Shown one piece after another: positions 3,026 through 41,100 of a DNA stretch of 64,000 nt. The DNA comes from an uncultured Polynucleobacter sp. (lineage in GTDB: Bacteria > Bdellovibrionota_B > Oligoflexia > Oligoflexales > RGVZ01), in NCBI GenBank assembly GCA_964402975.1, contig CAYOEM010000002.1, positions 156,729-220,728 on the forward strand. The letters run 5' to 3'. The stretch's first letter is position 1, and each line of letters begins with the position of its first letter. The notes under the pieces were generated by a model, which did not search any database, was not told where the DNA came from, and worked only from the letters and a program-made list of their open reading frames with translations. A program made the translations under genes and the position numbers.

Positions 3026-3070
3026 CGAGGCCCTGGTATCAATTTGATACCAGGGCCTCGCTCTATTTTG
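3026..3070 (+). terminator. Rho-independent terminator
   Basis: Perfect 15-bp stem: CGAGGCCCTGGTATC (3026-3040), loop AATTT, GATACCAGGGCCTCG (3046-3060). It is followed by CTCTATTTTG, 30 nt after the stop of 2376..2996. Confidence 0.8.
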
Positions 3071-3234
3071 AGACTACTTAACTCGCCTAATCCTAGACCT
3101 CTCCTGTAACGCACTAATTTTATTGAGTAGATGATCTCTCAAGTCACACTGAATCCCTGGCACAGTCCCTGCTTAGAATTCAATGAAGACAAACCGCAGA
3201 GTTATTTCATTCATTCGCGACCGAGGGAGTTCAG

Positions 3235-3945: not shown

Positions 3946-4046
3946 GCTAGCCAGGCTTAAGTCTTGATAAAAAGCATAAGACACCGACTTCCTTTTTTTT
4001 GTATGATAAGGGTCAAATAAGCTTTTGTGTGGGAGCCGGTTGTCAG

Positions 4047-12536: not shown

Positions 12537-12566
12537 AATCAATACTCAATCAGTCGGGTGTCCCCA
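12537..12566 (-). repeat. REP-like 30-mer, copy 2 (inverted)
   Basis: AATCAATACTCAATCAGTCGGGTGTCCCCA is the exact reverse complement of copy 1. It is 78 nt upstream of the RAYT start and contains the stop and last 8 codons of the 270-aa membrane-protein gene. Confidence 0.9.
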
Positions 12567-16887: not shown

Positions 16888-17420
16888 GCTTTCGAAACCT
16901 AGTTCTAGTCTGTTTGTTAATGGCAGGAGTTGCTTGGATAGCCGTGGTTAAATTTGACGGCTCACGCGACTCGACCTCAACGGAGACAACTACGACATTT
17001 GATGCCGACCCGAAGCAAAACACCGAAGCTGCCGGTGGCGAAGCGTCGACCGAGCAAGCTGAAGTAAAGCCTACCGATATGGCCTCTCCCGACCAAAATG
17101 AGACGGTAAAAACCAAAGACCTTTCGGTGGGAGCAACAAAACTCGCCACGGAGGGAAGTCGCATCACCTATAACGTCGTTATCAAACTAATGGACGGCAA
17201 GGTTGTCTTTGATTCCTACAAAGACAAACCCTGGACCGGCACTCTCGGGAATGGTTCAATCCTAACTGGGCTGGACAAGGGCATTCGAGGCATGTACCAG
17301 GGCGGAAAGAGGGCTATTTGGATTCCCTCATACCTAGCGTACGGCCCCTTTGGAATAAAGCCGCACATCCCACCTCACGCGAAACTCTACGCTGAGGTGG
17401 AACTTTTGACGGTGTTTTAA
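16884..17420 (+). CDS. Membrane-anchored FKBP-type peptidyl-prolyl cis-trans isomerase
   Basis: The C-terminal domain GSRITYNVVIKLMDGKVVFDSY...TGLDKGIRGMYQGGKRAIWIPSYLAYGP...LYAEVELLTV is a classic FKBP fold. I prefer the GTG at 16884 (GGAGGGGAG RBS, GTGA overlap with the upstream stop) over the track's TTG at 16845. Confidence 0.8.
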   Translation: MSFRNLVLVCLLMAGVAWIAVVKFDGSRDSTSTETTTTFDADPKQNTEAAGGEASTEQAEVKPTDMASPDQNETVKTKDLSVGATKLATEGSRITYNVVIKLMDGKVVFDSYKDKPWTGTLGNGSILTGLDKGIRGMYQGGKRAIWIPSYLAYGPFGIKPHIPPHAKLYAEVELLTVF

Positions 17421-17440: not shown

Positions 17441-20400
17441 TTATTTTCCGGAAGATGTTGTTCCTCGACCTCTCATACCAGTAATACCAACGTGCCCGAT
17501 GGCAGATAAACCGCCGCCCAAGTTACTAATCGATGATGTTACCCAAGATCCACTGTTGTTGGTGCCGAGCATGAAGCTATTACTATCCTTATAAACTACA
17601 TAAGCTCGACCGAAGCTGTCAAAGGCTAGCGATTGTTCAGAATAAGCGGCGCTGCCACCTGCCACTTGAGTATTGACGCCACTGCCAGATCTATTCGTCC
17701 AGAAGTTTACGCACGTCGTACTAGGATTAACGCATTGGCTGGCTACCTGACTTTCCCAAGCAATTCCAATAGCGTTTGAATTTTGACGATCTACCATGAT
17801 TGAAGGGCGCTCACTGTCAGCTAACCCGGAGCAAGACGACGACTTAATAGTTCCGACTGTGGACCACGCACCAGGCGATGAGAAAGAACCAGCCGAATAG
17901 GTTATATCTCCGTAATAAACACCACAACTGGTTGCCAAGCTACATACAATCGCAACACTTATTGTATTGTCATTCTTAGCAACAGCCGAAACTTTCTGCA
18001 CCGACGTACACCCCGACGGCAAGCTTGATATCGTGGAAGATGCGATACCCATATTCACGATCCTGAGTGTTCCATTTAGAGCGGTTAAACCGAAGATAGT
18101 TGAAGGCGCTATCGCTACCGCAGCATCTGTAAACTGCCCGCTTGATCCTGCAATTTGCCTTGATCCACTCCCAGTAGACATATAGAAACCATAGCTCGTT
18201 CCAGAACCAGCAATGTAAGAAGTAACTATCGTTGGAAGCGCATTAATCGCGATTTCATTAAATGAACCTGTATCCATAGAAGACGTGTTCGCTAACGTCT
18301 GAACGGTCGTTTCTGTCGACCAATTATTGGCAGATGATCGATAGCGGTATTTCAAAGCTGTATTCGTACCGTCATTCACCTTAAAACTGACGAAAGGATC
18401 ACCGCTTTCGTCAAGTTGTAGAGACGTTCTATCATCATAAGTTATTCCACTTGCATTGGCTGCAACTGTCTCCGAAGTCCATGCTAGGTTTTGATAACGC
18501 GCGTACATAACGCTATTGCTGTTTGTGTAAGAGAAGTGAACGATGTCAGTCTCTACCTCAAACGAGCTGGTGATCATACCTGATTTGTTAGTCGCCTGAT
18601 CCGACACATACATACAGATGTAATACAGCCCATCGTTAAGAGCAGTCAATGCCTGGGTTTGAGTCGTGTTTGCAACGCCCGCTATACTTGCATAAGACTG
18701 AAGTCTATTGCCCACGGTACACGTCGAATTAGTTGCAATATAAAGCTCAATAGTATGGTTGTCACTGGCTGTAACCCATGCCGGAGTTGTCCATGTTACA
18801 GTTGGAGTCGATGTTGAAACTTGACTTGCTGGACCCGTAATGGTCATAGCAGCAGGCGCCACGGTATCTTTAATCCATTGCGACACGGTCGCATCTGCAG
18901 CGGACTGTCTGTTGCCAGCTGCGTCCTCAGCCTGGGTACATAACGTGATTGTACCGTCAGCAAGGCCCGAGATATTAATGCTGACCGAGCTGGTGTTAGC
19001 CACTGCCGTGTAAGTTTGACCTGCACAGGAGTTGTTACCTGCTGTCACACTGTAATAATACTTAGCCGTATCCGTTGTCGTCGGTTGAATAGTAAATGAT
19101 GTATTATCAGTTGCACCGACCCTTGAGCGGTTTCCAGGGGGATTTGTCGAGAACGCTAGTGTCGGCGTCACAGTATCAACCACAAGCGTATTAGCAGGCG
19201 AGTAATAGTTTACGTTGCCAGCCACGTCTGTCATTCTGACACATGCTCTGTAAGTGTTGTCAACGCCTATATTTGACATATTAACGAGTGTCGTGCTGTA
19301 GCCTGTCATAGCTGCGCAAGTTGCTGCTGTTCCAATTGCATACTCGATTGTGCCATCACTCGTGACTGCAACTGAAAGGATTGGATTGGCAGCTGTTTTC
19401 TCAGCAGCATTAATGAAGAAACTCGAAAAATTCGAAGCATCATTGATCCAATCAAAGCCTGACGTTCTGGTCGGCAGACTCGTGTCACGAATAATATCAG
19501 AAGAAATCGCATATGAGTAGTTCAGCGCGGCATCTTGGACCCTTACACATACCCGGTACGTCGCATCTGATGCAAGGTTGCCATTTGGAGTCGGAACAGT
19601 GCTGGAATAGCTTCCTGCAGCAAGTGCCGAACAGTTCGCTGCAGTCGTAGCAGTTGTTGTCACTTGATAAACCGCATTAGTACCATCACCACCAGAGTAG
19701 GACACCAAGGCAGTGGTGAGGGCTTTCTCGCTATCATTAATATAGCCACCAACTGCGGCATTGGCTAAGCTCAACGTTCCCAAGGTCGGGAGCACTGTGT
19801 CTAGCACAATGTCCCCTGAAGCGACATAGCCCACGTTGCCAGCCGTATCTTGAGCCATCATACAAATTTTGTAGGTTCCCTGCCCGCTGAAATCAGTTGA
19901 GGACGGCGTGGGTATTGTTGTCTGGGTGCTAGATCCCACCGCAGCATTATCGCAGGTAGTCGTAGACGCGATCACTTTGTAACGTTTAGATCCTGCAACC
20001 ATATCAGCTGAAATACTGCTTTCCGTAGCCATCGCTAGCTGCGTTGTGCTTGACCTCGCATCAGCATTGACATACCCATTCACTGCTGCGTTCGCTAGGC
20101 TAAATGTTAGTGTAGGAGCTGCCAAATCAACGACAAGGTTTTGACTATCCGACGTTGCCGCGTACGAAACGTTACCGGTCTCGTCCGTTATTTTGACGCA
20201 TGCTTTGTATGTTCCGCTGGCTGTAAATGTCGTCTTATTCGGCATTGTGGAGGACCAAGTGGTCAGATCACTGCAATTTGTACTTGTAGTGCTCGTAGTC
20301 GCATAAGTGAATGAACTTGCGGGCAAACTAAGCAACACTGCGCTTCTGGTCGCCGTCGGTGCTGTCAAGATCGCACCTGCTTGTGCCTTTTCATCAATGT

Positions 20401-35400: not shown

Positions 35401-38400
35401 GCTGAACGAGACGCGAAACCGGGTTACTTGCATTAGCAAGGTCAGCCCCAGAGCGTCCCATAAGTCTTGGGTTGCCGCTCGTCGGGCCGTTAGATGGCTG
35501 CTGATCAAAGCGAACCTCGAGGGTACGGTCAATACCAAAAGCGCCATTCTTATCTTGGTATCCTCGCGAAAACGATTGCGCGCCCGACGGATTCCCAAAC
35601 TCATCATATAAGGCAATACGAAGACCAAAGGGTGCATCAGTGGTTAGACTTGATGTCCCTAAGCGGCTCACTTCCATAGTTTTGGGAGGGCCAGCCATGA
35701 GAGTGATGTTTACACCATAGCGGTAGTCAGGGGGAGCGAACCATCCGTCAGTAAATAACAAATTAATAAAGTTATTGCGAGCCATCAGCCCGAAAGCTTT
35801 TCCATTCTGTGTTTGAGGGATTTGCCGGCTATCGCCCACATCAAATATCACCGACGACGGTGAACCCATTGGTCCGTCCGCACCTCTCTTGGCACCCGAT
35901 AGCAGGTTCGATGATGTCTCGAAGCCATCCGTACGGGCTGGACGTATAAAGTTATGGGCAACGTCGTGTTCATGCCAATAGATCTGAGTTTTACCACATT
36001 TATAGGCATAACACCGATCACTTACACCAATCACTGGGGAAACATCCCCATATAAAGGGCCCCACTGAGACTCAGTCACACTATCATCAAACGTTGGGTG
36101 TAAGTGGTGAGCTGTTGACCTAAAGACAGTCAATTTGTCTCCGTGAGTGTGAGGCGATGCAGAACTTCCAGTCAGCTTGTTGTCTGCACCAGTGAAGGTT
36201 ATGCCAGCACCACGGGACTGGAACGCCGGAAACGGATCCTTGCCATCGACTGGGGTGAAGCTTGGCATGTCCACTTGAATAAATTTTTCCAGGTAGGGAA
36301 CTGCCGACTCGCGATTGGCCTCGGTTTGACCGTTATAGAGACAAGCTTTGACGCCGGTCGTAATAACACCTGTGGTTACGGTAACTGTAGTCATTAGCCA
36401 ATCGTTGAGCGATGGCTCCATCGGAACGCTGGGACTTTTGCTATAGTTGAATAAGCCACCGTCATTTGCTGTCATACCCAACAAATAAAAGCCGTCCCTA
36501 AACGGGCCAGTCACGAATACTTGGTTGTGAGGCTGGTAATAGGAGTAAGAGACTGACCTATTACGGTAGTTTTCAGCAAAGATCCCCGCCTGCAGGTCGT
36601 CGACCCCGTTAGGTTTATCTGGCGTCGTATTGATCATTTTAAAAACAACGTTGGGAACAACACCCGTATAGTTGGCGAGCTGGTTGTGCTTCTTGTCGTG
36701 AATAGTGATGACCACGTCATAGCACGTATCAGAAGTCGAAACCCAGTTGGTTTTTTGCTCAGCTGTCGCGGATTCAAAACCAGGCTTGGTCCATGACGCA
36801 TCTGGAGCACCACTTCGCACAAGCTTGGTCTCGATATGCTCAGGATCACCCGGAGTGACGGTCCACCAAGACGACGGCCAGCCAATCAACTGCGGATTCG
36901 TTGTAGAGCGTGGTACGGCAAAACCTTTACCAAAACGGTTTTGCGGTACAAAAACCGTGGTGTATTTATTCACGTCTGTGAACTTCGGATCAGTAATCTG
37001 CTGCGGTGTTCCGGCATAATCGGGATTATAGAACTTGGCTGGGGTCGGATTTTGAGGGTTGGAGTTATCCGCCGTGAAGACATCATAAAGATTATAGGAC
37101 GTATTCCATGCGGTAGAATTTCTCCACGCACCGGTTTGGGGCACAAAGACGGGCGGGACATCAGGAGCGTCCGTTGGCATTTTGAAAATACCGTCATCGG
37201 ATCTAAAGCCATCATAAACCAATCCGTCGCCAGCGACTGCGTCGCGGATATAACTACCACCTGCGTCCGTAACAGCTACAGCAAGAGGAAGTTCTTTGTC
37301 AGCCTTAATCGTTCGTCCTAGGGGGTATTGGAGTGAGCTTTCAATCACCGCACCCGCAGCAGGTCCGCCTTTTTGGTTAGCGAAGAATAGCCGTTGTTCG
37401 CTGCCAACTTTCGTGCCGATAATTTTTGCAAACGTTCCTTGGATACCACCTTCCGTTGTTTGCTTAACGGCCAAAAGCGCGGATGTCCTGGCATCAGCTA
37501 ACGTATATGTACCTGGAACTTCACAAACGCCAGCAAATTCCTTGCCAAACTCACAGTCGAAGTCACCCGATGGAAGCACCGGGGCTATGCCACCCCAGCT
37601 TTTCTCACCAGTGAAACGAACCTGCAATGTTTTAATGCCCTTATAAGAAGGAGAATCCGTACCATCACTGTCCTGGGCGTGGATACGAATTTTGAACTTA
37701 TGTCCGGTTGGAACGGGATCGTCCGAACCAACACGATAAATTACGGTTCCAGGAGCAACGTTACTATCAGCGCTAATAAATTCAAATGCAAACCGCGTCG
37801 CCGCGCCAGCAACTAGGCTCAAACGAGGCGACAGAGCGGGCCTGATTTTGACGGATGATAAATCAATTTGCCCGCCGTCGACACCATACATACCATTGGG
37901 AATAGCCAAGATCCTACCAGTTCCTGGGATCCCTTTGGAGTTGAATGTAACGGAGCTCACTCCTCCTCGATTGTTTAAGCCGAGATGAATACCGCAAAAT
38001 ACATTATTGCCTTCCGGCTGATTTGTCGCCACCCCGTAAGTTGCATCTTCCTTAGCTTGATCGTCGGGGGGAAGGCCTGTCTTTGGGCGACCTGCGTATG
38101 GAGTTTTTGGTTGTGGTCTTGGGCAAGACTCAAAGGAACCATAAGCACTCGGGTCTCGGGTGAAAAGCCTATCTGTCGCCGCTTTGAAGGCTGACGCCAG
38201 TGTGGGATCTTTATCATCTAAGGTGTAAGCAACACCCCAAAACTTAGCATCAGAGAAATCACTTACAAAGTTGGCGGCAGCATCATAGCCCGCTAAGTAA
38301 AAGCTATATTGCTGATCAGACGCCACGCTATAGCCTGTCACCGGGTCTAGCTCTTTCTCGTTCCAGCTCAAACCAGCGCCACCAGCGGTGTCCCGCCAGA

Positions 38401-40165
38401 GAGTTTGAACGACTGGCCCAGGATTAATCAACAACGGAACGGACTCGATATCGAGGTTTAAAACACCAGCAGTCGTTGTCGCTTCATCGACTGAAATTCT
38501 AGGCCATTGCGTGCTATCAGTCGCCGGTGGAACTTTTGTGACAACAAAGCCTTCCGTGGTGTTCTCTACCTCGGACGTCCTACCGATACCATTTGTAAAT
38601 GTGATTTTTTTATCACCAGTGTGGTCTAAAGTTGCGACTTTTGAAGCAGTCTTGACTAGTCCGGTTAGAGGAGAAACCACCACGTCAGTCAAAGGCGACA
38701 GCGAAAGCTTCATGGCGATCTGATCGTTGAATTGATAACAAAAGTTGCCGTACCGATCACGCAGCTCCATGACAGCAGGAAACGGCACCGTGGCTCGCTG
38801 TCTCGTATTGGTGATTTTAAGCTTCTTTGGCTTACCTGGTGTCACCAGGTACTTAATGTACATGTAAATCGGCTTGCCTTTGACACTAACCTTGATGGTG
38901 TCACCTTGCGAAGTAGGATCACTGGCTTTTAATGGATAAAGGGTCTGCTTGCCCGTGGTCACGATCGAACTTGCAATACGTCCAGCCTCGGCGAGAGGTC
39001 CTGTGATTTCACTCCACACGGTGTCGGGTGATTCCACCCAGTTGCCGCCCGCGTCAATTAGCATAGGATAAAGCTCTTTCTTGTCATCGTCAGCGGACAT
39101 AATAATGCATGGCTTATTCAAGAGATCAGAGTCAGCACAGGCGTTTTGAATGTTTCTTGTATCCGGCGACAAAGCCACAATTAACTGACTCGCCTGCCCC
39201 GTAATGACGGGTATTGAAAAGGAGGCCGGCTTTACTGGGAATTTAGGATCAGATGGTCTCGCCGAGAAACTCAACGTCGTTGGCTTCAGAACGCGGAACG
39301 GCCCGCCGGGGACAATACACTGCGAGTTACGAAACTCACAACGCTTTGATCCCGTCGGAACCACTACCGTAGATCCGTCGGGAGTATCTTGTAACCCTTC
39401 AGTGACGAAATCAAACATAAAGCCTTTACCTGGAGCCGTGTTTGGGATTCCAGGGGCATAAATCGCGAGGTTGAATGGAACACCAGCTTGGATGACTTGT
39501 CGACCATCGTTATCAAATAATAGTGGGACAACAATAAACGCAGACTGTATGGGATCAATGCCGCTATTTGCAAAATCATCGTTAGATGTGATCTTGATCA
39601 AAACCATTTCGATCAGCTCTGATGCTGTCGAGTCTTGTGGTACTCGCATTGCAATCGCCATGACTCCGCCCGGCGCGTTTGGCGTGGTGAAACCGACCGT
39701 TGCTTCACCATTTTGGTTGGTGACTCTCGATGGACCACTCAGCATACCAGCGCAGACATCGCGCGTGAAACCAGCATCACAGGTGTTTCCGGCAATGCTT
39801 CCCTTGGAATTCATAACGAAATTGCCGTCAGACCACTTAGTAAGAATCTCAGCTTTCATCGCTTCAGTTGACACACCGCCATTAAAGGCAGGGGTCACGT
39901 CGAACGCCTTAAACTCCACGTTAATATTGGGGACGGGTGAACCTTCTTTAGTTGTTACGACGAATTTGATTGGATCCAAAATAGTCTGGTTGGGTGGATA
40001 CATGTTCTTCACGGCCTCTGGAACCGCTCTCCAATTGCTTGCCGAGGCGCGAACACCGGCGGCATTCTTGGTGCCTTTGGTACAAGACGTCATTAAAGTC
40101 ACGCTCAGCAAACTGCAAGTCAGTGCTGCTGCGAACCTTATACCAACATCTCGAATCCTTTTCAT
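17441..40165 (-). CDS. Giant (7,574-aa) surface/envelope lipoprotein built of bacterial Ig-like modules (adhesin-like)
   Basis: A single uninterrupted 22,725-nt ORF; every overlapping ORF in other frames is 244 aa or shorter. MKRIRDVGIRFAAALTCSLLSVTLMTSC is a signal peptide with lipobox (Cys28 at 40082-40084). The body is a chain of ~90-110-aa modules with the recurrent D-x-(Y/F/W)-G-N motif of Big/invasin-type domains (RDRYGNFC, YDEFGNPSG, ARDVYGNDI, LFDPWGNYKG...). Confidence 0.9.
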   Translation of the reverse strand: MKRIRDVGIRFAAALTCSLLSVTLMTSCTKGTKNAAGVRASASNWRAVPEAVKNMYPPNQTILDPIKFVVTTKEGSPVPNINVEFKAFDVTPAFNGGVSTEAMKAEILTKWSDGNFVMNSKGSIAGNTCDAGFTRDVCAGMLSGPSRVTNQNGEATVGFTTPNAPGGVMAIAMRVPQDSTASELIEMVLIKITSNDDFANSGIDPIQSAFIVVPLLFDNDGRQVIQAGVPFNLAIYAPGIPNTAPGKGFMFDFVTEGLQDTPDGSTVVVPTGSKRCEFRNSQCIVPGGPFRVLKPTTLSFSARPSDPKFPVKPASFSIPVITGQASQLIVALSPDTRNIQNACADSDLLNKPCIIMSADDDKKELYPMLIDAGGNWVESPDTVWSEITGPLAEAGRIASSIVTTGKQTLYPLKASDPTSQGDTIKVSVKGKPIYMYIKYLVTPGKPKKLKITNTRQRATVPFPAVMELRDRYGNFCYQFNDQIAMKLSLSPLTDVVVSPLTGLVKTASKVATLDHTGDKKITFTNGIGRTSEVENTTEGFVVTKVPPATDSTQWPRISVDEATTTAGVLNLDIESVPLLINPGPVVQTLWRDTAGGAGLSWNEKELDPVTGYSVASDQQYSFYLAGYDAAANFVSDFSDAKFWGVAYTLDDKDPTLASAFKAATDRLFTRDPSAYGSFESCPRPQPKTPYAGRPKTGLPPDDQAKEDATYGVATNQPEGNNVFCGIHLGLNNRGGVSSVTFNSKGIPGTGRILAIPNGMYGVDGGQIDLSSVKIRPALSPRLSLVAGAATRFAFEFISADSNVAPGTVIYRVGSDDPVPTGHKFKIRIHAQDSDGTDSPSYKGIKTLQVRFTGEKSWGGIAPVLPSGDFDCEFGKEFAGVCEVPGTYTLADARTSALLAVKQTTEGGIQGTFAKIIGTKVGSEQRLFFANQKGGPAAGAVIESSLQYPLGRTIKADKELPLAVAVTDAGGSYIRDAVAGDGLVYDGFRSDDGIFKMPTDAPDVPPVFVPQTGAWRNSTAWNTSYNLYDVFTADNSNPQNPTPAKFYNPDYAGTPQQITDPKFTDVNKYTTVFVPQNRFGKGFAVPRSTTNPQLIGWPSSWWTVTPGDPEHIETKLVRSGAPDASWTKPGFESATAEQKTNWVSTSDTCYDVVITIHDKKHNQLANYTGVVPNVVFKMINTTPDKPNGVDDLQAGIFAENYRNRSVSYSYYQPHNQVFVTGPFRDGFYLLGMTANDGGLFNYSKSPSVPMEPSLNDWLMTTVTVTTGVITTGVKACLYNGQTEANRESAVPYLEKFIQVDMPSFTPVDGKDPFPAFQSRGAGITFTGADNKLTGSSASPHTHGDKLTVFRSTAHHLHPTFDDSVTESQWGPLYGDVSPVIGVSDRCYAYKCGKTQIYWHEHDVAHNFIRPARTDGFETSSNLLSGAKRGADGPMGSPSSVIFDVGDSRQIPQTQNGKAFGLMARNNFINLLFTDGWFAPPDYRYGVNITLMAGPPKTMEVSRLGTSSLTTDAPFGLRIALYDEFGNPSGAQSFSRGYQDKNGAFGIDRTLEVRFDQQPSNGPTSGNPRLMGRSGADLANASNPVSRLVQPGPFTDFLARDFAASNDADNILLVKANESRNLLLTLKDSKVIPWCAADALNCCFESASICESKKNSPRSISATFPVNAQPGLAAGTVLTFGTGPAAIRYPAQGSADPLTAYNAIFNTNPTAGATYPLGVSLTRTFKTNACATDQYGNIGECDTNAQFYVDGATNPSPLDALSSMLNVSFFNWRATKPGTFALKAVKNGFTAITAPISVASQPLNAFSFENVTTTQDVPAGSEFQVKVCMIDEAKNVITTKVFNDQGQVVTDPEATLPVGFSLFGLIANPEGKTLQLSTGSGTDFEAKKIDLAGASVKFTQGCTNLYAQIYAKGSYNSLPLLTMTYLDPMQSNKPFSGSGITVNSVVPGNFDHYGTKIAGAPVLAGASVVPALSNPNGPGVNVKATTTGGNRFDLTVYARDVYGNDIAYNSNFTIGLQLQGTQTPSSLQLTCAAPQNDNVCLARSMAGAPVTVANLAMDIPGSYFVFAKNSDQSGISLENSAMLTATASLKTIKEYGVDAPAIYDPYWPQSVTVSALDNKGNPISGIQDLLNSPSLNFTWIDESGQPLSTHLPPYGISSNPRYNSACVPGFDRPVFDATGVARFGVGFSFWSLTKKEVLKLNIRDSQAPSVSSNNVRSTDRKQSPVSYDVTCTKVSDGSDCTGTAANPVVMDASPENRFNLTVTTVDSCGNKAVGSSNIEVRGGVAGTFEAFSSPNITYGPNAVPTFIMGGSDQRTFNDIFSRSLGNAAYEIFDPGDSTGTRNRTKTYHTYRATLATVCGYSFENVSPTTPKVGEAVTFKLRANDCGTGPRPVLSGIDSLLNGQTYTWVGGSVGPNNQAPSYPPSTNLGFVNGITGPLSVTFTKAEQILDFYVIDNFVKGPSGVIAINGQVGQDPSGKRRSSKGGMTNPVTVIEGLPSKFVLSAPSTTVKAGSPFNVTVTAFDKNNNLVTNFGSDTLTFSWSGASPSVTNPVTAAIKPAEVLAPGSRTFDVGTASFTTTGSPFTLYRSNANALAPQEQPVLTVTSSRTGAQTETGQPLTASLTFTVQPSDTIAYAKVADASTFDATSDFTGKGLTMSNDQTKVFFGHLFDPWGNYKGTSPQIAWSGSSVLDGKLAPTPSLTTTLSPTTAGAGVITASCADVAPGCVSGSTGTISVDASPLKSFGVTQVSPAEGANVTAGDEVALKVCMLDRNQQVITNPVVVGGVTVTDPNGTLTGLGITSSVHILKNAEEKTQAVSLGSGAQFNPLVFGSNSLTFTNGCVNLYARVYAAGTYGLSKPLVSFAYTDTRQNNLAIGGSGLKLGTVAPAALDHYNTSITESSLDVNNASTGRVPAWSNPGSTNSYASAGGNRFGIDVRAIDAFGNLVPVTKSVTLGLVKRSDMSALSNQRLKCSAPNNNQACLSINLSNTATATVPWVGIDIPGEFFISATDGSKSWSTTNSQSFTAVPSAKTVKNYALTAPASAVAGQDTPIRIEARDAADQVITGADTELRGLTFGWQDGSAVALTTGHISPALTAPIVPSSLQFNAGVANVNITLTKAESGLQINVKDNQTTSIASNNTTLTTVSPGSSLYYAITCAKVTGGADCTGISASNAASMWASPSDMFNLQLKAFDQYQNPKSDGATSPAIKLTWESGNDALNTGVLEQVPLQNALDADKQVVVPMSGQPQRQVSNLFHRAGAHVLSMSVDPISANYVGMSQKTFHSYQAHIDMVTFYDFSPNLNSWTSPLVAGAQQNFTLRAFDQAGNVAKGIDTQLNAQRYLWRGPTAAPNGDAPVLPGPMTGTGGILSFSGGQVTGLSANFKNAETIADFHMVDNYTPGPSGVGGRGPSGVRRSVSSTNALTVINATPTEYVLSTVSTTVQAGAKFDVQVLVRDQFQNPAKTWTSDFLTFTWDSGGSSTPSNPSTGGRSADVSPAGLRTFAADTATVQTADQRFVLYKAPEPSVLKVTGLTPRATAQPVLSGTLAFTPTVSTTPGYVKIASSATFDGTTSLSGVGFSMATNDSRTLYAHLFDPFGNYSGNTSPVSWSGTDKLANKMTPTSAAVTTLTATEVGTGFVTASCTALNANCKQDTTGIVSVGASPLKSFVIEHTGTGILAEGGTVPAGTEIPMRVCMVDGAGQRITQDVYVNGVLRTQAGTVGTPVSLPLTFSDLNVKSVGQLTIDYSTGTGASYTANRFTSGAVNLPFIQGCAAFNAKLFATNTYNSAALLNITHTATLQGGITVLGTGLKVQAVTPLGLDHFRPIVMNAASTPQANSVPAWGIPGPNVYAKDGGSKFDVRVFAEDLYGNSVTVSGQSITLSTYAADRVNPRTRTLICPGKTYGDTSCLTQTLTGSDITFSNLAIDVGGFTFYPYASSGGIGSVLDVVNSAAYAVSSEKTVAQYVVTAPSSVPAGSEFTVGIVAKDATGANVQGADAALSGLSFSWLDGATPTKLALSTHTAPGGQAPAGVSPGALSFSGGSASRKITLTKVETGLKINVADNQSTSVTSNTSSTTDVGVGGQTWYELTCSRASDSSDCTGTSGSPVAMTGSAADKYSLTIKVYDQYKNPKTITANPQLQVTRVSGAAAVGRIEQHPLVLSESWPENNLVVPMSGVNQTTVPNLFRRSAAQTVSIGIAAVGATVDGLYSSVYHTYSPTIDSVAGYSISGFNDTTITAGFPYTVSIVARDNAGNPVTNIGAALNQQSYSWTGVGVAPNGQAPVLPGVPTGNTGPTYPATLTFSDSGTTGNMTLTFYKAEILIQQQFMFKDNYNGTAGNGGELGNPYRWTYTGGNRTVTHAKPSQYAVSSNSTTPAAGSGFDVTVTALDDYLNPATSWTADTLTFSWSGASNSITNPKTATVFSPGLPATNPVSATFTNGVFSTSGAPFKLYRSNLYSLTPQEVSTLSVSGSVTSGTKLGTALSKTLNFTTQPAAALSYVKIAKSDTFSDANNMSEQALTFSNNQTLNLYAHMFDAYGNYKGNSTSLAWSGSGALSANVSPTTGTFTTVTPAATGTGKIFATCSTSITGCIDDKTGDIGVKSAPLASFSIEHASSPLEGAAVTAGDEIPLKICMRDSKNQVITQTVVDGNNNTITNPDASLTLTFAAINITNTAEKIALDLSTLGGGSYSGAAAGARAVQFAAGCSNFFGKVYKAGTFGATLPLLSVTYSDPLQSGITIGGSGLKLASVAAKTLDHYVTAITGLSSSPQANSTQAWSAPGSTNTYANAGGNRFDVTVYARDIFGNPVTSTSQTVNLSLVQSDGTTAAGRSLICSATASPANGTTCLSPVITNSDSVTVSALAVDIGGQSFFVRATDANSKPFLASGFSTMMFAATSRKTVKEYLVTAPSTAVAGQDATVSVTAVDNSGATIIGADSDLNSLTFTWTDGTNLLSSHVAPDLTAPATSPAAGLGKLSARFNAGTATIRWAFTKAETGLTINLRDDQSPAVSSNNLSTTTVSAGTSLTYQLSCTKDTGGAIAVGDSCTGTSGSPASILASATDRFTMAIRPYDQYKNQRAGNATEVLQVDLIDGTAGGANKGWLEQTPSSLTKNANNDLIVDVSNSAGITVPGLFHRVGNHIVSYSIANQTTKWGLTYHTFAPSIDMVYSYSMSTIGGHVAGNAQPFTITARDRANNVARNIDTALRAQAFSWSGASASPAPTYPSTVANSINFSNGVSESLNVTFRKAETVSFAVQDNYSPPVSGIGGAGGSTRASSPQSIAVSNALASSFAITAPSSPQAGVGFAVTVRALDTFGNVVLNHPSESLAFTWTNASPSISNPKNASVFDPVATSRTSGTINNGSYTSGNDFFLYRTGESPVLRVTGGTSNLTTTATLTPVANTNHGYVRVTTDISYNAAQEVTTSQDVTTDANLTLYAHMFDGFGNWKGNTFSVSWTGSDQLSGKLTPSSGFTTVLRPTLQGFGTVTADCSGLPNVGGCTSFTSGQYTVKPGAIQKFVWLSSPATINQNTEACQKFTLQAQDNANNPVNVTAATGITFQSTGGFGEFYDSLANCQLAQAGGDGSSMNTGTFHTTPLAGSNGTRTAFIAKDANSVDVWYANRGVTAANGATISATLGSLTSSRTGQITAGPTKRFAITSSAFTVFAAGTGAETPNCAAITYKFQDKWQNDTPTTASSTVNLSSTSPIANGKFYSDATCQTPITSGQRTIASGAANDTVYYNDSQANSPTLTLGSTSTLSGNTVLAQQTISGTVNPGTFAVGTPASDSTVKDVINPGTGPLFSWGSSLGARDYTVTYGTTTACEVPTPIASATTATSANFPGNQNGTFYICVRANGYTGTAPGTPRRTASSDATYKLVVDNVAPTAAISVPASSVTYIGPVTPATHTATVNTSTTTVFQGTASDATSGVNRVDITLQRTSNSQYWTGSGWSTTETWLQATGTTSWKYEIADGSFVDGAAYTLRARVTDSSQNQSTLVSKAFTWKSSATSARINSGLPAANTYSNLTSLASPGVLIDDTNNPALVTHYAYAIVSGSTCPAAIGGYSAFRAVGTRITDTLPLTDGQYTLCVLGRDEAGNVQDVGSPTSRSWTKDTAAPTIAAMSQVTVNSAHAAAPNVSDNIDAVANMTYAWSYVSSPDGRCTGASFTAATAKDTSISATGCSTPSVPNTNWGTVTVRLTVTDRASNSSTSDLNIRWDQQAPYVASITSSVAANSNCRVGFCGATAQANIPISIVFTKDAGNFNRSSFNLTVSGSPTMNLNIRGTGNVTRTAALTPNTYNNNGSGSVTVAASYTITAGDASGTASGVILNADNATPFTNISSIVDNTGTTGTAASNAGVPTTGANALSNRSITIDTVAPTATAALANAAVGGYINDGEKSLTTDLVAAAVGAETLLSTDVPQYAVIPLATACDASVTGMSTTIPTPSSAGMASLAEGTYRVCMRIVDLAGNVGYSVSNNIIIDRTLPVFTSINVPVTAVNNTTVTTSDVGNTLNSSGADATTNPITYAVTKNTTCDGTITYGAMPKISNLNSDGIWYLCVRLEDIAGNVRFGQAASSINRQTVAAQLTAGTFQWTGDAANYFLNIDEKAQAGAILTAPTATRSAVLLSLPASSFTYATTSTTSTNCSDLTTWSSTMPNKTTFTASGTYKACVKITDETGNVSYAATSDSQNLVVDLAAPTLTFSLANAAVNGYVNADARSSTTQLAMATESSISADMVAGSKRYKVIASTTTCDNAAVGSSTQTTIPTPSSTDFSGQGTYKICMMAQDTAGNVGYVASGDIVLDTVLPTLGTLSLANAAVGGYINDSEKALTTALVSYSGGDGTNAVYQVTTTATTAANCSALAAGSYSSTVPTPNGNLASDATYRVCVRVQDAALNYSYAISSDIIRDTSLPTRTSGFDWINDASNFSSFFINAAEKTAANPILSVAVTSDGTIEYAIGTAATCAAMTGYSTTLVNMSNIGVDNTYRACVRMTDVAGNVNYYSPANTLVVDTVTPTLAFSTNPPGNRSRVGATDNTSFTIQPTTTDTAKYYYSVTAGNNSCAGQTYTAVANTSSVSINISGLADGTITLCTQAEDAAGNRQSAADATVSQWIKDTVAPAAMTITGPASQVSTSTPTVTWTTPAWVTASDNHTIELYIATNSTCTVGNRLQSYASIAGVANTTQTQALTALNDGLYYICMYVSDQATNKSGMITSSFEVETDIVHFSYTNSNSVMYARYQNLAWTSETVAANASGITYDDRTSLQLDESGDPFVSFKVNDGTNTALKYRYRSSANNWSTETTVQTLANTSSMDTGSFNEIAINALPTIVTSYIAGSGTSYGFYMSTGSGSRQIAGSSGQFTDAAVAIAPSTIFGLTALNGTLRIVNMGIASSTISSLPSGCTSVQKVSAVAKNDNTISVAIVCSLATSCGVYYGDITYSAGSFSSPGAWSTVGTIKSSSCSGLADSERPSIMVDRQNSNAIGIAWESQVASQCVNPSTTCVNFWTNRSGSGVNTQVAGGSAAYSEQSLAFDSFGRAYVVYKDSNSFMLGTNNSGSWVTSSISNLGGGLSAIGHVGITGMRGRGTTSSGK
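18560..22580 (-). repeat. Array of ~12 diverged ~105-aa modules inside the giant ORF (D-T-x-A-P-T ... Y-x-x-C-x-x-x-x-D-x-A-G-N)
   Basis: Module starts include VDNVAPTAA, DTAAPTIA, DTVAPTATA, DLAAPTLTF, DTVLPTLGT, DTSLPTRTS, DTVTPTLAF and DTVAPAAMT. Module ends include GQYTLCVLGRDEAGN, GTYRVCMRIVDLAGN, GIWYLCVRLEDIAGN, GTYKACVKITDETGN, GTYKICMMAQDTAGN, ATYRVCVRVQDAALN, NTYRACVRMTDVAGN, GTITLCTQAEDAAGN and GLYYICMYVSDQATN. Confidence 0.8.
23666..34774 (-). repeat. Four tandem ~2.8-kb (~906-938 aa) super-repeats inside the giant ORF
   Basis: Unit starts, marked by the (S/A/Q)-P-L-x-(S/A)-F motif, are at ~34774, 31963, 29197 and 26383; the array ends at ~23666. Anchor motifs: KVCMID (~34689), KVCMLD (~31875), RVCMVD (~29100), KICMRD (~26292). 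The same order of 8-9 sub-domains recurs in each unit. Units are diverged (roughly 40-50% aa identity by eye). Confidence 0.85.
33322..33330 (-). repeat. Homopolymeric G9 tract (C9 on + strand) within the giant ORF
   Basis: The plus strand reads gcaaCCCCCCCCCttac. The coding strand reads gta AGG GGG GGG Gtt, encoding V-R-G-G-V at about codon 2279. It is the longest G/C homopolymer I saw in the window. Confidence 0.9.
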
Positions 40166-40460: not shown

Positions 40461-41081
40461 ATGAACAGTCAAAAGTCGTTGATAACACGCAAAAAAATAC
40501 TTCTTCTCATGGCGGTTTCGCTAGGTTGCAGCGCCTTGACGTCCTGTGGCACCGTAGCCATTCGAAGCTCGCCAGCCGATGCCGAGATTTCACTGATGCA
40601 GCCAGGGCGCGCCGACCCAAAGCCACTAGGGAAAACACCCTTTGAGGGAAAACTGGGTGATCTTGGATCTGCGGCAAACAGTGGGCCGATTATCTTGCAA
40701 ATTAAAAAACCCGGCTACATCACACAAAGCCTTTACGTGCCAAACGCTTCAGGCTCAAGAATTGAGTTCGACACAAATCTAAAGCCAGTCAACCCCGGAT
40801 CTTTTGCCGACATGAATAAAATTGTGAAACTCGTGCTTCAAGCTGAACGAGAAATCATGATGAAGCAAGTCGACGAAGCACTGAAAACCGCGTCCAACAT
40901 CAAAGCCATCAACGACAATATCGCCATGGCCTGGGAGATTGAGGGTGCCGCATACTTTGTGAAAGGTGATCTTGCGAAAGCAAAAGTAGCGTGGTTACGT
41001 TCACTTGAAATCGATCCAGAAAACCCCGAAACAACAAAAATGCTGAGCACGATTGATGAAAAACTCGGGACGAAAAAGTAA
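40461..41081 (+). CDS. Lipoprotein with PEGA-like domain and C-terminal TPR
   Basis: LLLMAVSLGCSALTSCGT is a signal peptide plus lipobox. VAIRSSPADAEISL...LGKTPF...ILQIKKPGYITQSLYV fits the PEGA pattern. AWEIEGAAYFVKGDLAKAKVAWLRSLEIDPENPE is a TPR-like repeat. Confidence 0.6.
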   Translation: MNSQKSLITRKKILLLMAVSLGCSALTSCGTVAIRSSPADAEISLMQPGRADPKPLGKTPFEGKLGDLGSAANSGPIILQIKKPGYITQSLYVPNASGSRIEFDTNLKPVNPGSFADMNKIVKLVLQAEREIMMKQVDEALKTASNIKAINDNIAMAWEIEGAAYFVKGDLAKAKVAWLRSLEIDPENPETTKMLSTIDEKLGTKK

Positions 41082-41100
41082 AAGAGGATAAATCTTGGCT

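What the first reader, a model, noticed from the sequence alone, without database searches (positions are those of the whole stretch)
17441..40165. 22.7-kb single ORF encoding a 7,574-aa lipobox-anchored giant protein with no recognisable dedicated secretion system
**Size and reality.** One uninterrupted ORF fills 35% of the window, roughly 0.75-0.8 MDa judged from length alone.

**Export signal.** The N-terminus is a Sec/lipoprotein signal (LMTSC, Cys28). I find none of the hallmarks used by other giant bacterial adhesins:
- no GGxGxD RTX nonapeptides or adjacent T1SS ABC/MFP pair
- no autotransporter/intimin barrel
- no LPXTG motif
- no obvious T9SS C-terminal domain

**Five zones by eye:**
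1. ~1,800 aa of heterogeneous Big-like modules (40081..34775)
2. four ~930-aa super-repeats (34774..23666)
3. two homologous ~130-aa domains plus an FN3-like segment (23665..22581)
4. ~12 'DTxAPT...YxxCxxxxDxAGN' modules (22580..18560)
5. a ~370-aa Ser/Thr/Gly/Asn-rich terminal domain (18555..17441)

**Composition.** It is dominated by T/S/G/A/N/V. Conserved Cys pairs occur in many modules, which suggests disulfide-stabilised extracytoplasmic domains.

**Open question.** How a lipoprotein of this size would be exported, lipidated and surface-displayed is not obvious.
Basis: partly seen in the sequence, partly recalled or inferred. Interest (0 to 1): 0.8.

Follow-up and report, generated by a model that had tools for sequence, protein, structure and literature searches.

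The report
Giant lipid-anchored fibre protein with helpers
The 22.7-kb gene is real and encodes a 789-kDa lipid-anchored fibre of about 60 Ig-like beads tipped by a β-propeller; it belongs to an unnamed family of 4,600–10,500-aa lipoproteins that always travel with five or six unknown envelope genes, which may be their missing export or assembly machinery.

Summary
ORF 17441..40165(-) is uninterrupted, 7,574 aa and 788.5 kDa, has no long DNA repeats, and is recovered identically in three other assemblies.

- **Lipobox.** It passes the PROSITE-type lipoprotein rule. A lipobox Cys is present in all 20 relatives' N-termini examined.
- **Architecture.** It runs N-zone, four 35–41%-identical ~930-aa super-repeats (confident AF2 model: tandem β-sandwiches), two Cys-pair domains, 11 Big_13 modules, then a β-propeller with a conserved disordered basic tail.
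- **Known secretion routes.** No RTX, T1SS, T5SS, T9SS, LPXTG or PEP-CTERM feature was found.

1. The protein is not an orphan. Exhaustive HMMER finds collinear giants (4,617–10,522 aa) with 1–4 super-repeats, all annotated "hypothetical".
2. "No dedicated system" is incomplete. A TPR/PEGA lipoprotein, a small OMP-like protein, a lipoprotein, a Cys-rich anchored protein, an anchored FKBP isomerase and usually an SBP5-like protein stay linked to the giant gene across 27–77% divergence. In one locus they form a single gene string.

Most likely this is an adhesin-like envelope fibre with a dedicated, undescribed maturation cassette. Surface versus periplasmic location, the organism and the function are all unproven. 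It is a new variant of a known kind.

The parts
17441..40165 (-). Giant lipoprotein gene, 7,574 aa plus stop
   Evidence: Single ORF. The identical product is found in four assemblies. No long DNA repeats lie inside it.
40082..40165 (-). Signal peptide with lipobox (aa 1-28, LMTSC, Cys28), followed by the conserved +2..+4 T-K-G
   Evidence: PROSITE-type lipoprotein rule met, and this is the only TM-like segment. The Cys is conserved in all relatives examined, usually followed by x-K-G.
34859..40081 (-). N-zone (aa 29-1769), non-repetitive, no Pfam match, conserved across the family
   Evidence: No internal repeats. No Pfam, NCBIfam or PDB sequence hit. 27-67% identical to family members and 38% to P0023. 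A beta-sandwich nature is inferred only from recurrent h.h.h.a.D..GN strand motifs.
32066..34858 (-). Super-repeat 1 (aa 1770-2700)
   Evidence: Full-length match to the super-repeat HMM. 35-36% identical to the other copies.
29300..32065 (-). Super-repeat 2 (aa 2701-3622), the copy that was modelled
   Evidence: AF2 model with a 13-sequence alignment, mean pLDDT 82.5, all-beta. Foldseek top hits are tandem beta-sandwich arrays: NUP210 at E=1e-14, alpha2-macroglobulin/C3 MG domains, and ECAM at E=5e-11.
26486..29299 (-). Super-repeat 3 (aa 3623-4560)
23666..26485 (-). Super-repeat 4 (aa 4561-5500)
22841..23665 (-). Zone 3 (aa 5501-5775): two Cys-pair domains
   Evidence: 30-66% identical to the same zone in nine relatives. 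The internal duplication is weak (E=0.026).
18566..22840 (-). Zone 4 (aa 5776-7200): array of 11 Big_13-type Ig-like modules of about 100 aa (DTxAP...C...D.AGN), with two unassigned gaps
   Evidence: Pfam Big_13 at E=2.8e-14 and 3.5e-7, above cut-off, and Big_3_4 marginal. Module coordinates come from an iterative HMM.
17480..18565 (-). Zone 5 (aa 7201-7562): C-terminal beta-propeller
   Evidence: AF2 pTM 0.63, pLDDT 60, four-strand units. All 29 Foldseek hits at E<=1e-3 are propellers, with TM-scores of only 0.2-0.35. 28-67% identical in nine relatives.
17444..17479 (-). Conserved, predicted-disordered basic C-terminal tail (GMRGRGTTSSGK; family motif G-[IV]-x-G-M-[KR]-G-R-[GS]...G-[KQ]-COOH)
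   Evidence: Invariant M, G, R, G, G and K in alignment A1. Present in 10 family C-termini. pLDDT is below 50 for the last 12 residues.
40461..41081 (+). Accessory gene TPR206: lipoprotein with a PEGA-like segment and TPR repeats, divergent from the giant gene
   Evidence: TPR_2 at E=2.8e-5; PEGA only faint at E=0.11. Lipobox read from the sequence. Homologues (29-85% identical) sit next to giants in L004, L007, L009, L011, L012, L013 and L014.
41095..41742 (+). Accessory gene p215: signal peptide, Gly/aromatic-rich alternating strands, C-terminal ...GNGMTF; putative small outer-membrane beta-barrel (inference)
   Evidence: Sequence and amphipathic pattern. No Pfam or PDB hit. The OmpX profile comparison is not significant. 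The family has 35 clusters, all 'hypothetical'. Always next to the TPR gene and a giant gene.
13530..15152 (+). Accessory gene SBP5-like (540 aa), N-terminal membrane anchor
   Evidence: SBP_bac_5 at E=5e-13, partial. Anchor read from the sequence. Homologues in L007, L008 and L011; none was found in L009, and L013 was not resolved.
15149..15964 (+). Accessory gene p271: lipoprotein (ISLTSC), Cys-rich, no known domain
   Evidence: Homologues in L007, L008, L009, L011 and L013.
15961..16887 (+). Accessory gene p308: N-terminal membrane anchor, four invariant Cys, no known domain
   Evidence: Homologues in L006, L007, L008, L009, L011 and L013.
16845..17420 (+). Accessory gene FKBP191: membrane-anchored FKBP-type peptidyl-prolyl isomerase, convergent with the giant gene's 3' end
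   Evidence: FKBP_C at E=5.5e-19. Anchor read from the sequence. Homologues sit next to the giant's 3' end in L006, L007, L009 and L011.

Best explanation
The gene encodes an extracytoplasmic, N-terminally lipid-anchored fibre protein of the adhesin type.

**Export and anchoring (steps inferred from established lipoprotein biology).** The protein is exported by Sec. The conserved Cys28 is diacylglyceryl-modified and signal peptidase II cleaves before it. The lipid then holds the N-terminus in a membrane of a diderm cell.

**Architecture (shown by sequence and structure prediction).**
- About 60 beta-sandwich (Ig-like) domains form a long stalk: the N-zone, four super-repeats of about 7 domains each, two Cys-pair domains and 11 Big_13 modules.
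- The stalk carries a C-terminal beta-propeller as the distal head. The head is presumed to bind a ligand.
- The protein ends in a conserved, disordered basic tail.
- Stalk length is tuned in evolution by the number of super-repeats, 1 to 4 in the relatives analysed. Longer giants of 9,087 and 10,522 aa also exist.

**Accessory genes (linkage shown, function inferred).** The gene belongs to a lineage-restricted locus with a conserved accessory set:
- a TPR/PEGA lipoprotein
- a small OMP-like protein (p215)
- a lipoprotein (p271)
- a Cys-rich anchored protein (p308)
- an anchored FKBP prolyl isomerase
- usually an anchored SBP5-like protein

I propose these are its dedicated folding, trafficking or anchoring helpers. 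The FKBP would act as a periplasmic foldase/holdase for the proline-rich multi-domain chain. The TPR lipoprotein and p215 would act at the outer membrane.

Anatomy, family membership and gene linkage are shown here. Lipidation, surface exposure, binding function and any role of the accessory genes are inferred.
For: - **Real gene.**
- **Lipobox.** The rule is met, and the Cys is conserved in 20 of 20 N-termini across 23-74% identity. There is no other TM segment.
- **Diderm host.** The window carries an AcrB/MFP/OEP operon.
- **Super-repeat fold.** The AF2 model has pLDDT 82.5, and its Foldseek matches are tandem beta-sandwich arrays at E=1e-14 to 1e-10.
- **Big_13 array.** It scores above the Pfam cut-off. 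The Big_13 HMM also drifts into about three sub-domains per super-repeat, which suggests one fold family.
- **Head.** All significant fold matches to the C-terminal model are propellers.
- **Family.** Members are collinear, with 1-4 super-repeats and a conserved head and tail.
- **Extracytoplasmic setting.** Paired Cys occur throughout the protein.
- **Accessory linkage.** The set is conserved in L004, L006, L007, L008, L009, L011, L012, L013 and L014. It survives an inversion (L007 versus the window) and is fused into one gene string in L009. The reverse look-up from p215 reaches a giant gene in 4 of 4 cases.
- **Envelope targeting.** All six accessory proteins carry a signal, an anchor or a lipobox.
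- **Precedent.** A conserved PPIase next to giant genes is also reported for Omnitrophota (10.1101/2023.11.21.568195).
Against: - There are no expression, lipidation or localisation data.
- Surface exposure is unproven. Lol-sorting rules are species-specific (PMC6469965), and the conserved Lys at +3 could even be a retention signal.
- No known outer-membrane translocon for lipoproteins is present: no Slam/DUF560, no T2SS and no T5 barrel (PMC7857515).
- If p215 is a barrel at all, about 185 mature residues is too small to be a channel. Its barrel nature is not confirmed.
- The propeller model has only moderate confidence, with low TM-scores, and no ligand can be named.
- The N-zone fold was not modelled.
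- The accessory role rests on gene linkage only. SBP5-like and FKBP are not present at every locus, and the distant relative P0047 lacks the whole set.
- The organism is unidentified beyond MAG labels such as 'Pseudomonadota bacterium'.
Confidence: 0.6

Rival explanations
1. Periplasmic, inner-membrane-anchored giant, comparable to bacterial alpha2-macroglobulin. The lipid anchor keeps the protein on the outer face of the inner membrane. The beta-sandwich chain stays in the periplasm as a structural or protective element, serviced by accessory proteins that are also inner-membrane-anchored.
For: - Foldseek matches include MG-domain proteins and E. coli ECAM (5a42, E=5e-11). ECAM is itself a lipoprotein (my own knowledge).
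- FKBP191, p308 and SBP5-like have N-terminal membrane anchors, so they act at the inner membrane or in the periplasm.
- Lys is conserved at +3 after the Cys, and positions +3/+4 govern Lol avoidance in P. aeruginosa (PMC6469965).
- No outer-membrane translocon was found.
Against: - There is no thioester CxEQ motif and no A2M-family Pfam hit.
- The Foldseek matches are generic tandem beta-sandwiches with TM-scores of 0.1-0.17.
- About 60 domains, roughly 0.2-0.3 micrometres if extended (my estimate), plus a terminal propeller head fit a reaching fibre better than a periplasmic resident.
- A lipoprotein/OMP-like pair (TPR206 and p215) is also conserved.
- Copy-number variation of the stalk is typical of surface adhesins (general knowledge).
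Confidence: 0.2
2. Motor-coupled motility or track adhesin, analogous to SprB in function. The giant fibre would be a surface adhesin moved or tensioned by a proton-motive-force stator encoded nearby.
For: A MotA/ExbB plus MotB_plug/OmpA pair and a SpoIIE-type phosphatase lie within about 10 kb of the giant gene in three relatives: L007, L009 and L013. The distant relative P0047 is preceded by a FliG_C-domain protein. A giant repetitive adhesin (SprB, about 6,500 aa) is the moving part of Flavobacterium gliding (my own knowledge).
Against: - No MotA/ExbB, MotB or SpoIIE gene was found in the 64-kb window or in L011, so that linkage is not general.
- There is no T9SS or Gld signature.
- Such stator genes are common and could be chance neighbours.
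Confidence: 0.08
3. A member of an already characterised giant-adhesin class with a known route: a T1SS RTX adhesin of the LapA/SiiE type, a T5SS intimin/invasin or autotransporter, a T9SS cargo, or a sortase or exosortase substrate.
For: Big_13 modules, as in zone 4, are common in large repetitive surface proteins. There are faint Big_1 and Invasin_D3 hints (E=0.011 and 0.08).
Against: - No RTX nonapeptide, LPxTG or PEP motif.
- No barrel or CTD model hit in Pfam or NCBIfam.
- No T1SS ABC exporter in the window.
- A conserved N-terminal lipobox takes the place of a T1SS retention module.
- The C-terminus is a propeller plus a short basic tail.
- No full-length match to any named protein; every named family member is 'hypothetical protein'.
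Confidence: 0.04
4. Assembly artefact or decaying pseudogene: the repeats were collapsed, expanded or chimerically joined, or the ORF is not translated.
For: All assemblies are short-read metagenomes, and the three Logan runs have consecutive accessions, so they are probably one study. One relative, P0023 in L004, ends abruptly at 1,183 aa, which may be a chimeric join.
Against: - The repeats are only 35-41% identical in protein. No DNA repeat exceeds 47 nt, so there is nothing to mis-assemble.
- The 22.7-kb frame is intact.
- Collinear orthologues of 7,567, 7,586 and 7,522 aa come from other samples and sources.
- Lipobox, head and tail are conserved at 27-67% identity, which implies purifying selection.
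- The composition is native to the region.
Confidence: 0.02

Closest known systems
Leptospiral immunoglobulin-like proteins LigA/LigB (surface lipoproteins made of tandem Ig-like domains)
   Same: An N-terminal lipobox anchor is followed by a chain of tandem bacterial Ig-like domains and a distinct C-terminal domain. These are adhesin-type proteins of a diderm. The description of Lig rests on my own knowledge; the lipobox and beta-sandwich chain here come.
   Different: Lig proteins have about 12-13 Big_2 domains (about 1,200-1,900 aa). This protein has about 60 domains and no Big_2 match. It is 4-6 times longer, has super-repeats, a beta-propeller head and a conserved accessory gene set. There is no detectable sequence homology.
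Giant repetitive Gram-negative adhesins exported by T1SS (LapA, SiiE, MpIBP, BapA)
   Same: The size class is similar: a long stalk of Ig-like repeats whose copy number varies, with a distal ligand-binding region. Big_13-type modules are present.
   Different: Those adhesins have C-terminal RTX repeats and a T1SS signal, an adjacent ABC/MFP/TolC system and no signal peptide. Here there is a Sec/SPII lipobox and no RTX or T1SS. The polarity is reversed: the anchor is a lipid at the N-terminus and the head is at the C-terminus.
Bacterial alpha2-macroglobulin (E. coli ECAM/YfhM)
   Same: It is a lipoprotein built from many beta-sandwich (MG) domains. It appears among the Foldseek matches (5a42, E=5e-11).
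   Different: There is no thioester motif and no A2M Pfam domain. The protein here is 4.6 times longer, has a propeller head, and the match is generic (TM 0.16).
Slam (surface lipoprotein assembly modulator) and its surface-lipoprotein substrates
   Same: The substrate gene is genetically linked to a TPR-containing envelope protein and a beta-rich outer-membrane-type protein. Slam is an N-terminal TPR domain plus a 14-strand barrel, and it is often adjacent to its substrate (PMC7857515; PMC5449769, listed).
   Different: Here the TPR protein and p215 are separate genes. p215 has only about 185 mature residues and no DUF560 match. The substrate is about 10 times larger than TbpB-type surface lipoproteins, and four further accessory genes have no Slam counterpart.
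Omnitrophota giant proteins (West-Roberts et al., bioRxiv 10.1101/2023.11.21.568195)
   Same: These are giant genes in uncultured bacteria with conserved neighbouring genes, including a peptidyl-prolyl isomerase. They are proposed to mediate attachment.
   Different: Those giants carry transmembrane regions and SecA-like, peptidase and dockerin domains, and lie next to T2SS/T4P-like loci. Lipoproteins are not mentioned in that paper. Here there is a lipobox, Ig-like beads, a propeller, an FKBP rather than a Rotamase_2 isomerase, and no T2SS.

Membership tests
Bacterial lipoprotein (signal peptidase II substrate, PROSITE PS51257) | Basic n-region, uncharged h-region, and lipobox ending in Cys within residues 15-35 | tested here: met
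   The rule {DERK}(6)-[LIVMFWSTAG](2)-[LIVMFYSTAGCQ]-[AGS]-C matches SLLSVTLMTSC at Cys28. K2, R3 and R5 lie in the n-region. The stricter [LVI][ASTVI][GAS]C pattern is not met in the window protein (Met at -3), but it is met in the relative P0023 (LSAC).
Bacterial lipoprotein (signal peptidase II substrate, PROSITE PS51257) | Lipobox Cys conserved in homologues | tested here: met
   Present in 20 of 20 N-termini examined: the window protein, P0023, L005, P0025-32, P0034, P0037, P0038, P0046-48, L012, L013 and L014.
Bacterial lipoprotein (signal peptidase II substrate, PROSITE PS51257) | Actual diacylglyceryl modification and SPII cleavage | not testable with these tools
   This needs labelling, globomycin treatment or mass spectrometry. 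The lgt, lspA and lnt genes are not in the window.
T1SS RTX adhesins (LapA/SiiE type) | C-terminal GGxGxD nonapeptide repeats | tested here: not met
   No GG.G.D anywhere in the protein, and no RTX/HemolysinCabind Pfam hit.
T1SS RTX adhesins (LapA/SiiE type) | Adjacent ABC exporter, MFP and TolC genes | tested here: not met
   Every ORF of 150 aa or more in the window was scanned. The only MFP/OEP pair is in an AcrB (RND) operon 10 kb away. The only ABC gene is an ABC-2-type ATPase at 62337.
T5SS (autotransporter, intimin/invasin) | Integral beta-barrel translocator domain in the same polypeptide | tested here: not met
   No barrel model hit in Pfam or NCBIfam. The C-terminus is a propeller. 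Big_1 and Invasin_D3 score only 16 and 14 bits against cut-offs of 35 and 33.
T9SS cargo | Conserved C-terminal sorting domain (CTD) | tested here: not met
   No Pfam or NCBIfam CTD model hit. The last 380 aa are a propeller plus a 12-residue basic tail.
Sortase or exosortase substrates | LPXTG or PEP motif followed by a TM helix and a basic tail | tested here: not met
   No LP.TG, no PEP in the last 80 aa, and no C-terminal hydrophobic segment.
Big_13 bacterial Ig-like domain (PF19077) | Score above the Pfam gathering threshold | tested here: met
   53.9 bits (cut-off 27) with 5 stretches in aa 6065-6822, and 31.1 bits with 3 stretches in aa 6823-7574. This applies to zone 4 only.
Leptospira Lig-type lipoprotein adhesins | Tandem Big_2 domains | tested here: not met
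   No Big_2 hit at E<=1 in any tile.
Bacterial alpha2-macroglobulin | Thioester CxEQ motif and A2M/MG Pfam domains | tested here: not met
   No C.EQ and no A2M-family Pfam hit. Only a generic fold resemblance is seen.
Slam-dependent surface lipoprotein system | Neighbouring outer-membrane protein with an N-terminal TPR domain and a DUF560 14-strand barrel | tested here: not met
   The TPR motif is in a separate 206-aa lipoprotein. p215 has no DUF560 or any other Pfam hit at E<=1, and no PDB sequence hit.
Sialidase/BNR six-bladed propeller | Asp-box (SxDxGxTW) repeats and catalytic residues | tested here: inconclusive
   The best fold hits are sialidase-type propellers (8t24, E=4e-6), but TM-scores are 0.2-0.35 and identity 8-12%. 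There is no BNR Pfam hit. Only degenerate '...W[ST]' turns are seen by eye.
Outer-membrane 8-stranded beta-barrel (OmpX/OmpA type), for p215 | Profile similarity to known small OMPs; C-terminal aromatic beta-signal | tested here: inconclusive
   The terminal Phe and alternating hydrophobic pattern are present. No Pfam or PDB hit.

The most novel reading that the evidence does not exclude
The conserved, entirely uncharacterised accessory set is a previously undescribed, dedicated pathway that folds, traffics and displays (or docks) megadalton-class lipoproteins in a diderm envelope. The set comprises the TPR/PEGA lipoprotein, OMP-like p215, lipoprotein p271, Cys-rich anchored p308, an anchored FKBP and, in most loci, an SBP5-like protein. 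The invariant disordered C-terminal tail (G-[IV]-x-G-M-[KR]-G-R-G...) or the C-x-K-G N-terminus would serve as its recognition signal. This would be a new route for surface lipoproteins, distinct from Slam, T2SS, T5SS, BAM/RcsF and LptDE.
Probability: 0.25. Interest if true: 0.8.

Novelty: new variant of a known kind. Interest (0 to 1): 0.55.

Why it matters
Giant repetitive adhesins are familiar, and more than 41,000 proteins over 5,000 aa are already catalogued (PMC11573180). Size alone is therefore not news.

**What is unusual is the combination.**
- The 4.6-10.5k-aa fibres start with a strictly conserved lipoprotein signal.
- They carry no feature of any described giant-adhesin secretion route.
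- They are genetically tied to five or six envelope proteins that match nothing in Pfam, NCBIfam or the PDB.

**The open problem.** How Gram-negative bacteria move lipoproteins to the cell surface is only partly solved. The known routes are Slam, T2SS, T5SS, BAM and LptDE (PMC7857515, PMC12065857). A substrate of about 0.8 MDa would be an extreme test case for any of them.

**What this locus offers.**
- A compact, testable candidate system.
- Two candidate recognition signals.
- A natural series of stalk lengths, from 1 to 4 super-repeats.
- A widespread beta-sandwich domain (more than 1,000 representative proteins) that Pfam does not yet model.

If the protein turns out to stay in the periplasm, a 7,500-aa periplasmic lipoprotein would itself be unusual.

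Tried and rejected
- **Word-indexed homologue search with the N-zone and the C-terminal domain.** It returned only 1 and 2 hits and suggested an orphan. That was a sensitivity artefact, because candidate lists were saturated by low-complexity words. The exhaustive HMMER search overturned it.
- **Pfam and NCBIfam on halves.** Almost nothing was found. Tiling was needed to bring Big_13 above threshold.
- **PDB sequence searches with both halves, p215 and p308.** Nothing significant. The 6fpc Pro-Pro endopeptidase hit to p308 (E=0.35) was rejected, since p308 has no HExxH and no conserved His.
- **Identifying the organism.** The genome-collection scan found only a 2.2-kb fragment from a MAG labelled 'bacterium'. 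The Rfam and tRNA scans of the window were empty. A paper search for the run and MAG accessions was empty. Cluster look-ups of 16 window proteins gave no organism names. Only 'Pseudomonadota bacterium' and 'Proteobacteria bacterium' labels on relatives' MAGs were obtained. A Bdellovibrionota-like origin, which I suspected from the many genes without any Pfam match, could not be tested and is not claimed.
- **p215 as an OmpX/OmpA-type barrel.** Not significant, so it is kept only as an inference.
- **His-rich motifs in the N-zone (HHLHPTF, YWHEHDVAHNF).** I considered these as a possible metal or catalytic site. I rejected that because they align with the ordinary h.h.h.a.D..xN strand motif of the beta-sandwich domains.
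- **The short relative P0023 (1,183 aa) as evidence for a natural 'core-only' form.** Homology stops abruptly with no scaffold gap. A chimeric join cannot be excluded, so it is not used as evidence.
- **Promoter and terminator scans around the gene ends.** Nothing above the shuffled expectation.
- **Three similar-sized Pfam-negative ORFs at 1514-3945.** Checked for paralogy; they are unrelated.

Full report
**1. The observation**

The window contains one open reading frame on the minus strand from 40165 down to 17441. It is 7,574 codons long with a single terminal stop.
- The product weighs 788.5 kDa and has pI 5.48.
- It is rich in T, A, S, G, V and N. It has 93 cysteines, mostly spaced as pairs.
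- GC and GC3 (0.50 and 0.48) match the neighbouring genes.

- There is no tandem repeat inside the ORF, and no direct DNA repeat longer than 47 nt. Even those short repeats are only about 74% identical.
- The exact 7,574-aa sequence was called on contigs from three sequencing runs (SRR6262237, SRR6262238, SRR6262239) and on a 336,716-bp NCBI contig, always in the same gene context.
- The three runs probably belong to one study. The stronger argument is that collinear orthologues of 7,567, 7,586 and 7,522 aa exist in unrelated samples.

**2. The export signal**

The N-terminus MKRIRDVGIRFAAALTCSLLSVTLMTSC|TKG satisfies the PROSITE-type lipoprotein rule at Cys28. It is the only hydrophobic, TM-like stretch in the protein.
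- The strict textbook lipobox is not met, because Met sits at -3. Conservation settles the matter.
- The Cys sits at the end of the signal peptide in every relative whose N-terminus I could read, 20 of 20. These relatives span about 23-74% identity to the window protein.
- The Cys is usually followed by x-Lys-Gly.

Lipidation itself cannot be tested here.

**3. The anatomy**

*Super-repeats.* Self-comparison and a local HMM give four super-repeats at aa 1770-2700, 2701-3622, 3623-4560 and 4562-~5500, at 35-41% pairwise identity.
- I modelled copy 2 with a 13-sequence alignment of copies from the window and four orthologous loci. The model is confident (mean pLDDT 82.5) and all-beta.
- Its Foldseek matches are chains of tandem beta-sandwich domains: NUP210 Ig-like arrays, the MG domains of alpha2-macroglobulin/C3 including E. 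coli ECAM, and protocadherin. E-values run from 1e-14 to 1e-10.
- Each super-repeat holds about seven such domains, marked by a recurring F.v.V.a.D..GN strand motif.

*Zone 4.* This zone is an array of 11 modules of about 100 aa that reach Pfam Big_13 once the protein is tiled (E=2.8e-14).

*C-terminal head.* The last ~375 residues fold, at moderate confidence (pTM 0.63), into four-strand units. Every significant fold match is a beta-propeller, but TM-scores are too low to name a family.

*Tail.* The final 12 residues (GMRGRGTTSSGK) are predicted disordered, yet they are among the most conserved positions in the family.

*What remains unmatched.* Residues 1 to about 5800 match nothing in Pfam, NCBIfam or PDB sequences. 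The N-zone was not modelled.

**4. Not an orphan**

The word-indexed searches suggested that the two ends had almost no relatives. An exhaustive HMMER search with the super-repeat profile showed that this was an artefact.
- It found 1,076 representative proteins at E<=1e-3 and 58 at E<=1e-30.
- The top hits are collinear giants. P0025-P0030, P0032, P0034 and P0036 share the N-zone (27-67% identity), zone 3, the Big_13 array, the propeller (28-67%) and the tail.
- The number of super-repeats is 4, 3, 2 or 1 depending on the member.
- Two further members reach 9,087 and 10,522 aa.
- Every named member is 'hypothetical protein'. One is from a MAG labelled Pseudomonadota bacterium.
- One sub-domain (profile positions ~700-790) recurs in hundreds of unrelated repeat proteins, for which Pfam has no model.

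**5. The neighbourhood**

No described secretion machine is present in the window. The MFP/OEP pair belongs to an AcrB RND pump, and the only ABC gene is an ABC-2 ATPase. The flanking genes are nonetheless not random.

- **Upstream and divergent:** a lipoprotein with TPR repeats and a faint PEGA-like segment (TPR206), and a 215-aa secreted protein ending ...GNGMTF (p215).
- **Downstream and convergent, as one operon:** an anchored SBP5-like protein, a lipoprotein (p271), an anchored protein with four invariant Cys (p308), and an anchored FKBP isomerase.

Homologues of these genes flank the giant gene as follows.

| Locus | Giant relative | Arrangement or accessory genes found |
|---|---|---|
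| L011 | P0028 | same arrangement as the window |
| L007 | P0034, ~35% identical | downstream cassette inverted onto the giant's strand |
| L008 | P0030 | SBP5-like, p271 and p308 homologues |
| L009 | P0181, ~27-30% identical | TPR, p215, p271, p308, giant and FKBP form one co-directional string |
| L004, L006 | fragments | TPR and p215 (L004); p308 and FKBP (L006) |

As a reverse test, I started from p215 homologues found on their own (a family of 35 clusters). In 4 of 4 cases they lay beside a TPR gene and a divergent giant, or a contig-truncated large gene with the family's lipobox N-terminus.

A more distant lipoprotein relative, P0047, lacks the set. The accessory proteins have no Pfam, NCBIfam or PDB match beyond TPR, FKBP and a partial SBP_bac_5. 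The barrel nature of p215 remains an inference.

**6. Mechanism**

The best-supported reading is a Sec-exported, lipid-anchored envelope fibre.
- Its stalk is about 60 beta-sandwich domains with evolutionarily adjustable length. It carries a C-terminal propeller head, so it is an adhesin-type molecule.
- The linked genes most plausibly act as its foldase, trafficking or docking helpers.
- A conserved prolyl isomerase beside giant genes has also been noted in Omnitrophota.

What is shown here is the gene, the signal and its conservation, the folds of two zones, the family, and the gene linkage. What is inferred is lipidation, location, ligand binding and any accessory function.

Location is open.
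- Lol-sorting signals differ between species: Asp+2 in enterobacteria and +3/+4 in P. aeruginosa (PMC6469965).
- None of the known surface-lipoprotein routes (Slam, T2SS, T5SS, BAM; PMC7857515) is recognisable here.
- A periplasmic, ECAM-like existence is therefore the main rival, although the thioester motif is absent.
- Stator-like MotA/MotB genes near three relatives hint at a motility link. They are absent from the window.

**7. Comparison and novelty**

- In function the protein most resembles lipoprotein Ig-like adhesins (Lig) and giant repeat adhesins (LapA/SiiE).
- It is a member of none of those families: Big_2, RTX/T1SS, barrel, CTD, thioester and DUF560 were each tested and not met.
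- It is a member of the lipoprotein class by sequence rule, and it contains Big_13 domains.
- I file it as a new variant of a known kind: a giant Ig-like fibre adhesin with an N-terminal lipid anchor and a private, uncharacterised accessory cassette.

**8. Verdict**

- The 'no secretion system' puzzle is replaced by a concrete candidate system.
- Interest is moderate to good (0.55), because giant adhesins are common and everything functional is inferred.
- If the cassette proves to be a new lipoprotein display pathway (about 25% probability), it would matter considerably more.

Noticed in passing
window 17444-17479 (aa 7563-7574) and the C-termini of P0025-P0030, P0032, P0034, P0036 and P0024: The last ~12 residues are predicted disordered (pLDDT below 50) but nearly invariant across the family: G-[IV]-x-G-M-[KR]-G-R-[GS]-x3-5-G-[KQ]-COOH. 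This matches no known C-terminal sorting signal, since there is no TM helix, LPXTG, PEP motif or CTD. Its function is unexplained.
   Followed up: partly
L013 1-9182 (gene of 10,522 aa) and the P0285 locus (gene of 9,087 aa): Family members considerably larger than the window protein exist. Both run off the fetched locus, so their super-repeat number and C-termini were not examined.
   Followed up: no
L007 1-7788; L009 1-4214; L013 15204-20642: A MotA/ExbB-like gene, a MotB_plug/OmpA-like gene and a SpoIIE (PP2C) phosphatase with a HAMP domain lie within about 10 kb of the giant gene in three relatives. They are absent from the window and from L011.
   Followed up: partly
Super-repeat profile positions ~700-790 (for example window aa 3406-3484); P0040, P0041, P0045: A sub-domain of about 95 aa (…AG.aF.vtvtA.D.yGN…tf.G…P.g..P.yp..v.F..G.a…LY.a) recurs up to ~28 times per protein among the best 150 of 1,076 representative hits, including high-GC actinobacterial-style repeat proteins. 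Pfam has no model for it; only spurious hits with zero significant stretches were returned.
   Followed up: partly
L004 2860-6411 (P0023): A 1,183-aa relative covers only the first ~1,240 residues of the N-zone. Homology ends abruptly at ...NEGG, with no scaffold gap. The next 16 codons overlap an antisense small membrane-protein ORF, followed by murB. This is either a natural short form or a chimeric metagenome join.
   Followed up: partly
window 11778-12458 (-): An IS200/Y1-type transposase gene (Y1_Tnp, E=2.6e-16) lies about 5 kb from the accessory operon, next to a ceramidase-family membrane protein at 12539-13351.
   Followed up: no
window 50466-56151 (-): A complete tripartite RND efflux operon is present: OEP 54856-56151, MFP 53822-54859 and AcrB 50466-53822. 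It shows that the host is a diderm, and it should not be mistaken for a T1SS.
   Followed up: yes
Whole window: About half of the ORFs of 150 aa or more have no Pfam or NCBIfam match. No tRNA or Rfam family occurs in 64 kb. The host lineage is poorly characterised; relatives' MAGs are labelled only 'bacterium', 'Pseudomonadota bacterium' or 'Proteobacteria bacterium'.
   Followed up: partly
window aa 1385-1400 and ~1310-1320 of the giant (N-zone); same positions in P0026-P0034 and P0039: The His-rich motifs HHLHPTF.D and C-G-x-T-x-[VI]-Y-W-H-x-H-D-x-x-H-N-[FY] are conserved family-wide. They align with the ordinary beta-strand D..GN motif, so they are probably structural. A metal site was not excluded.
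   Followed up: partly
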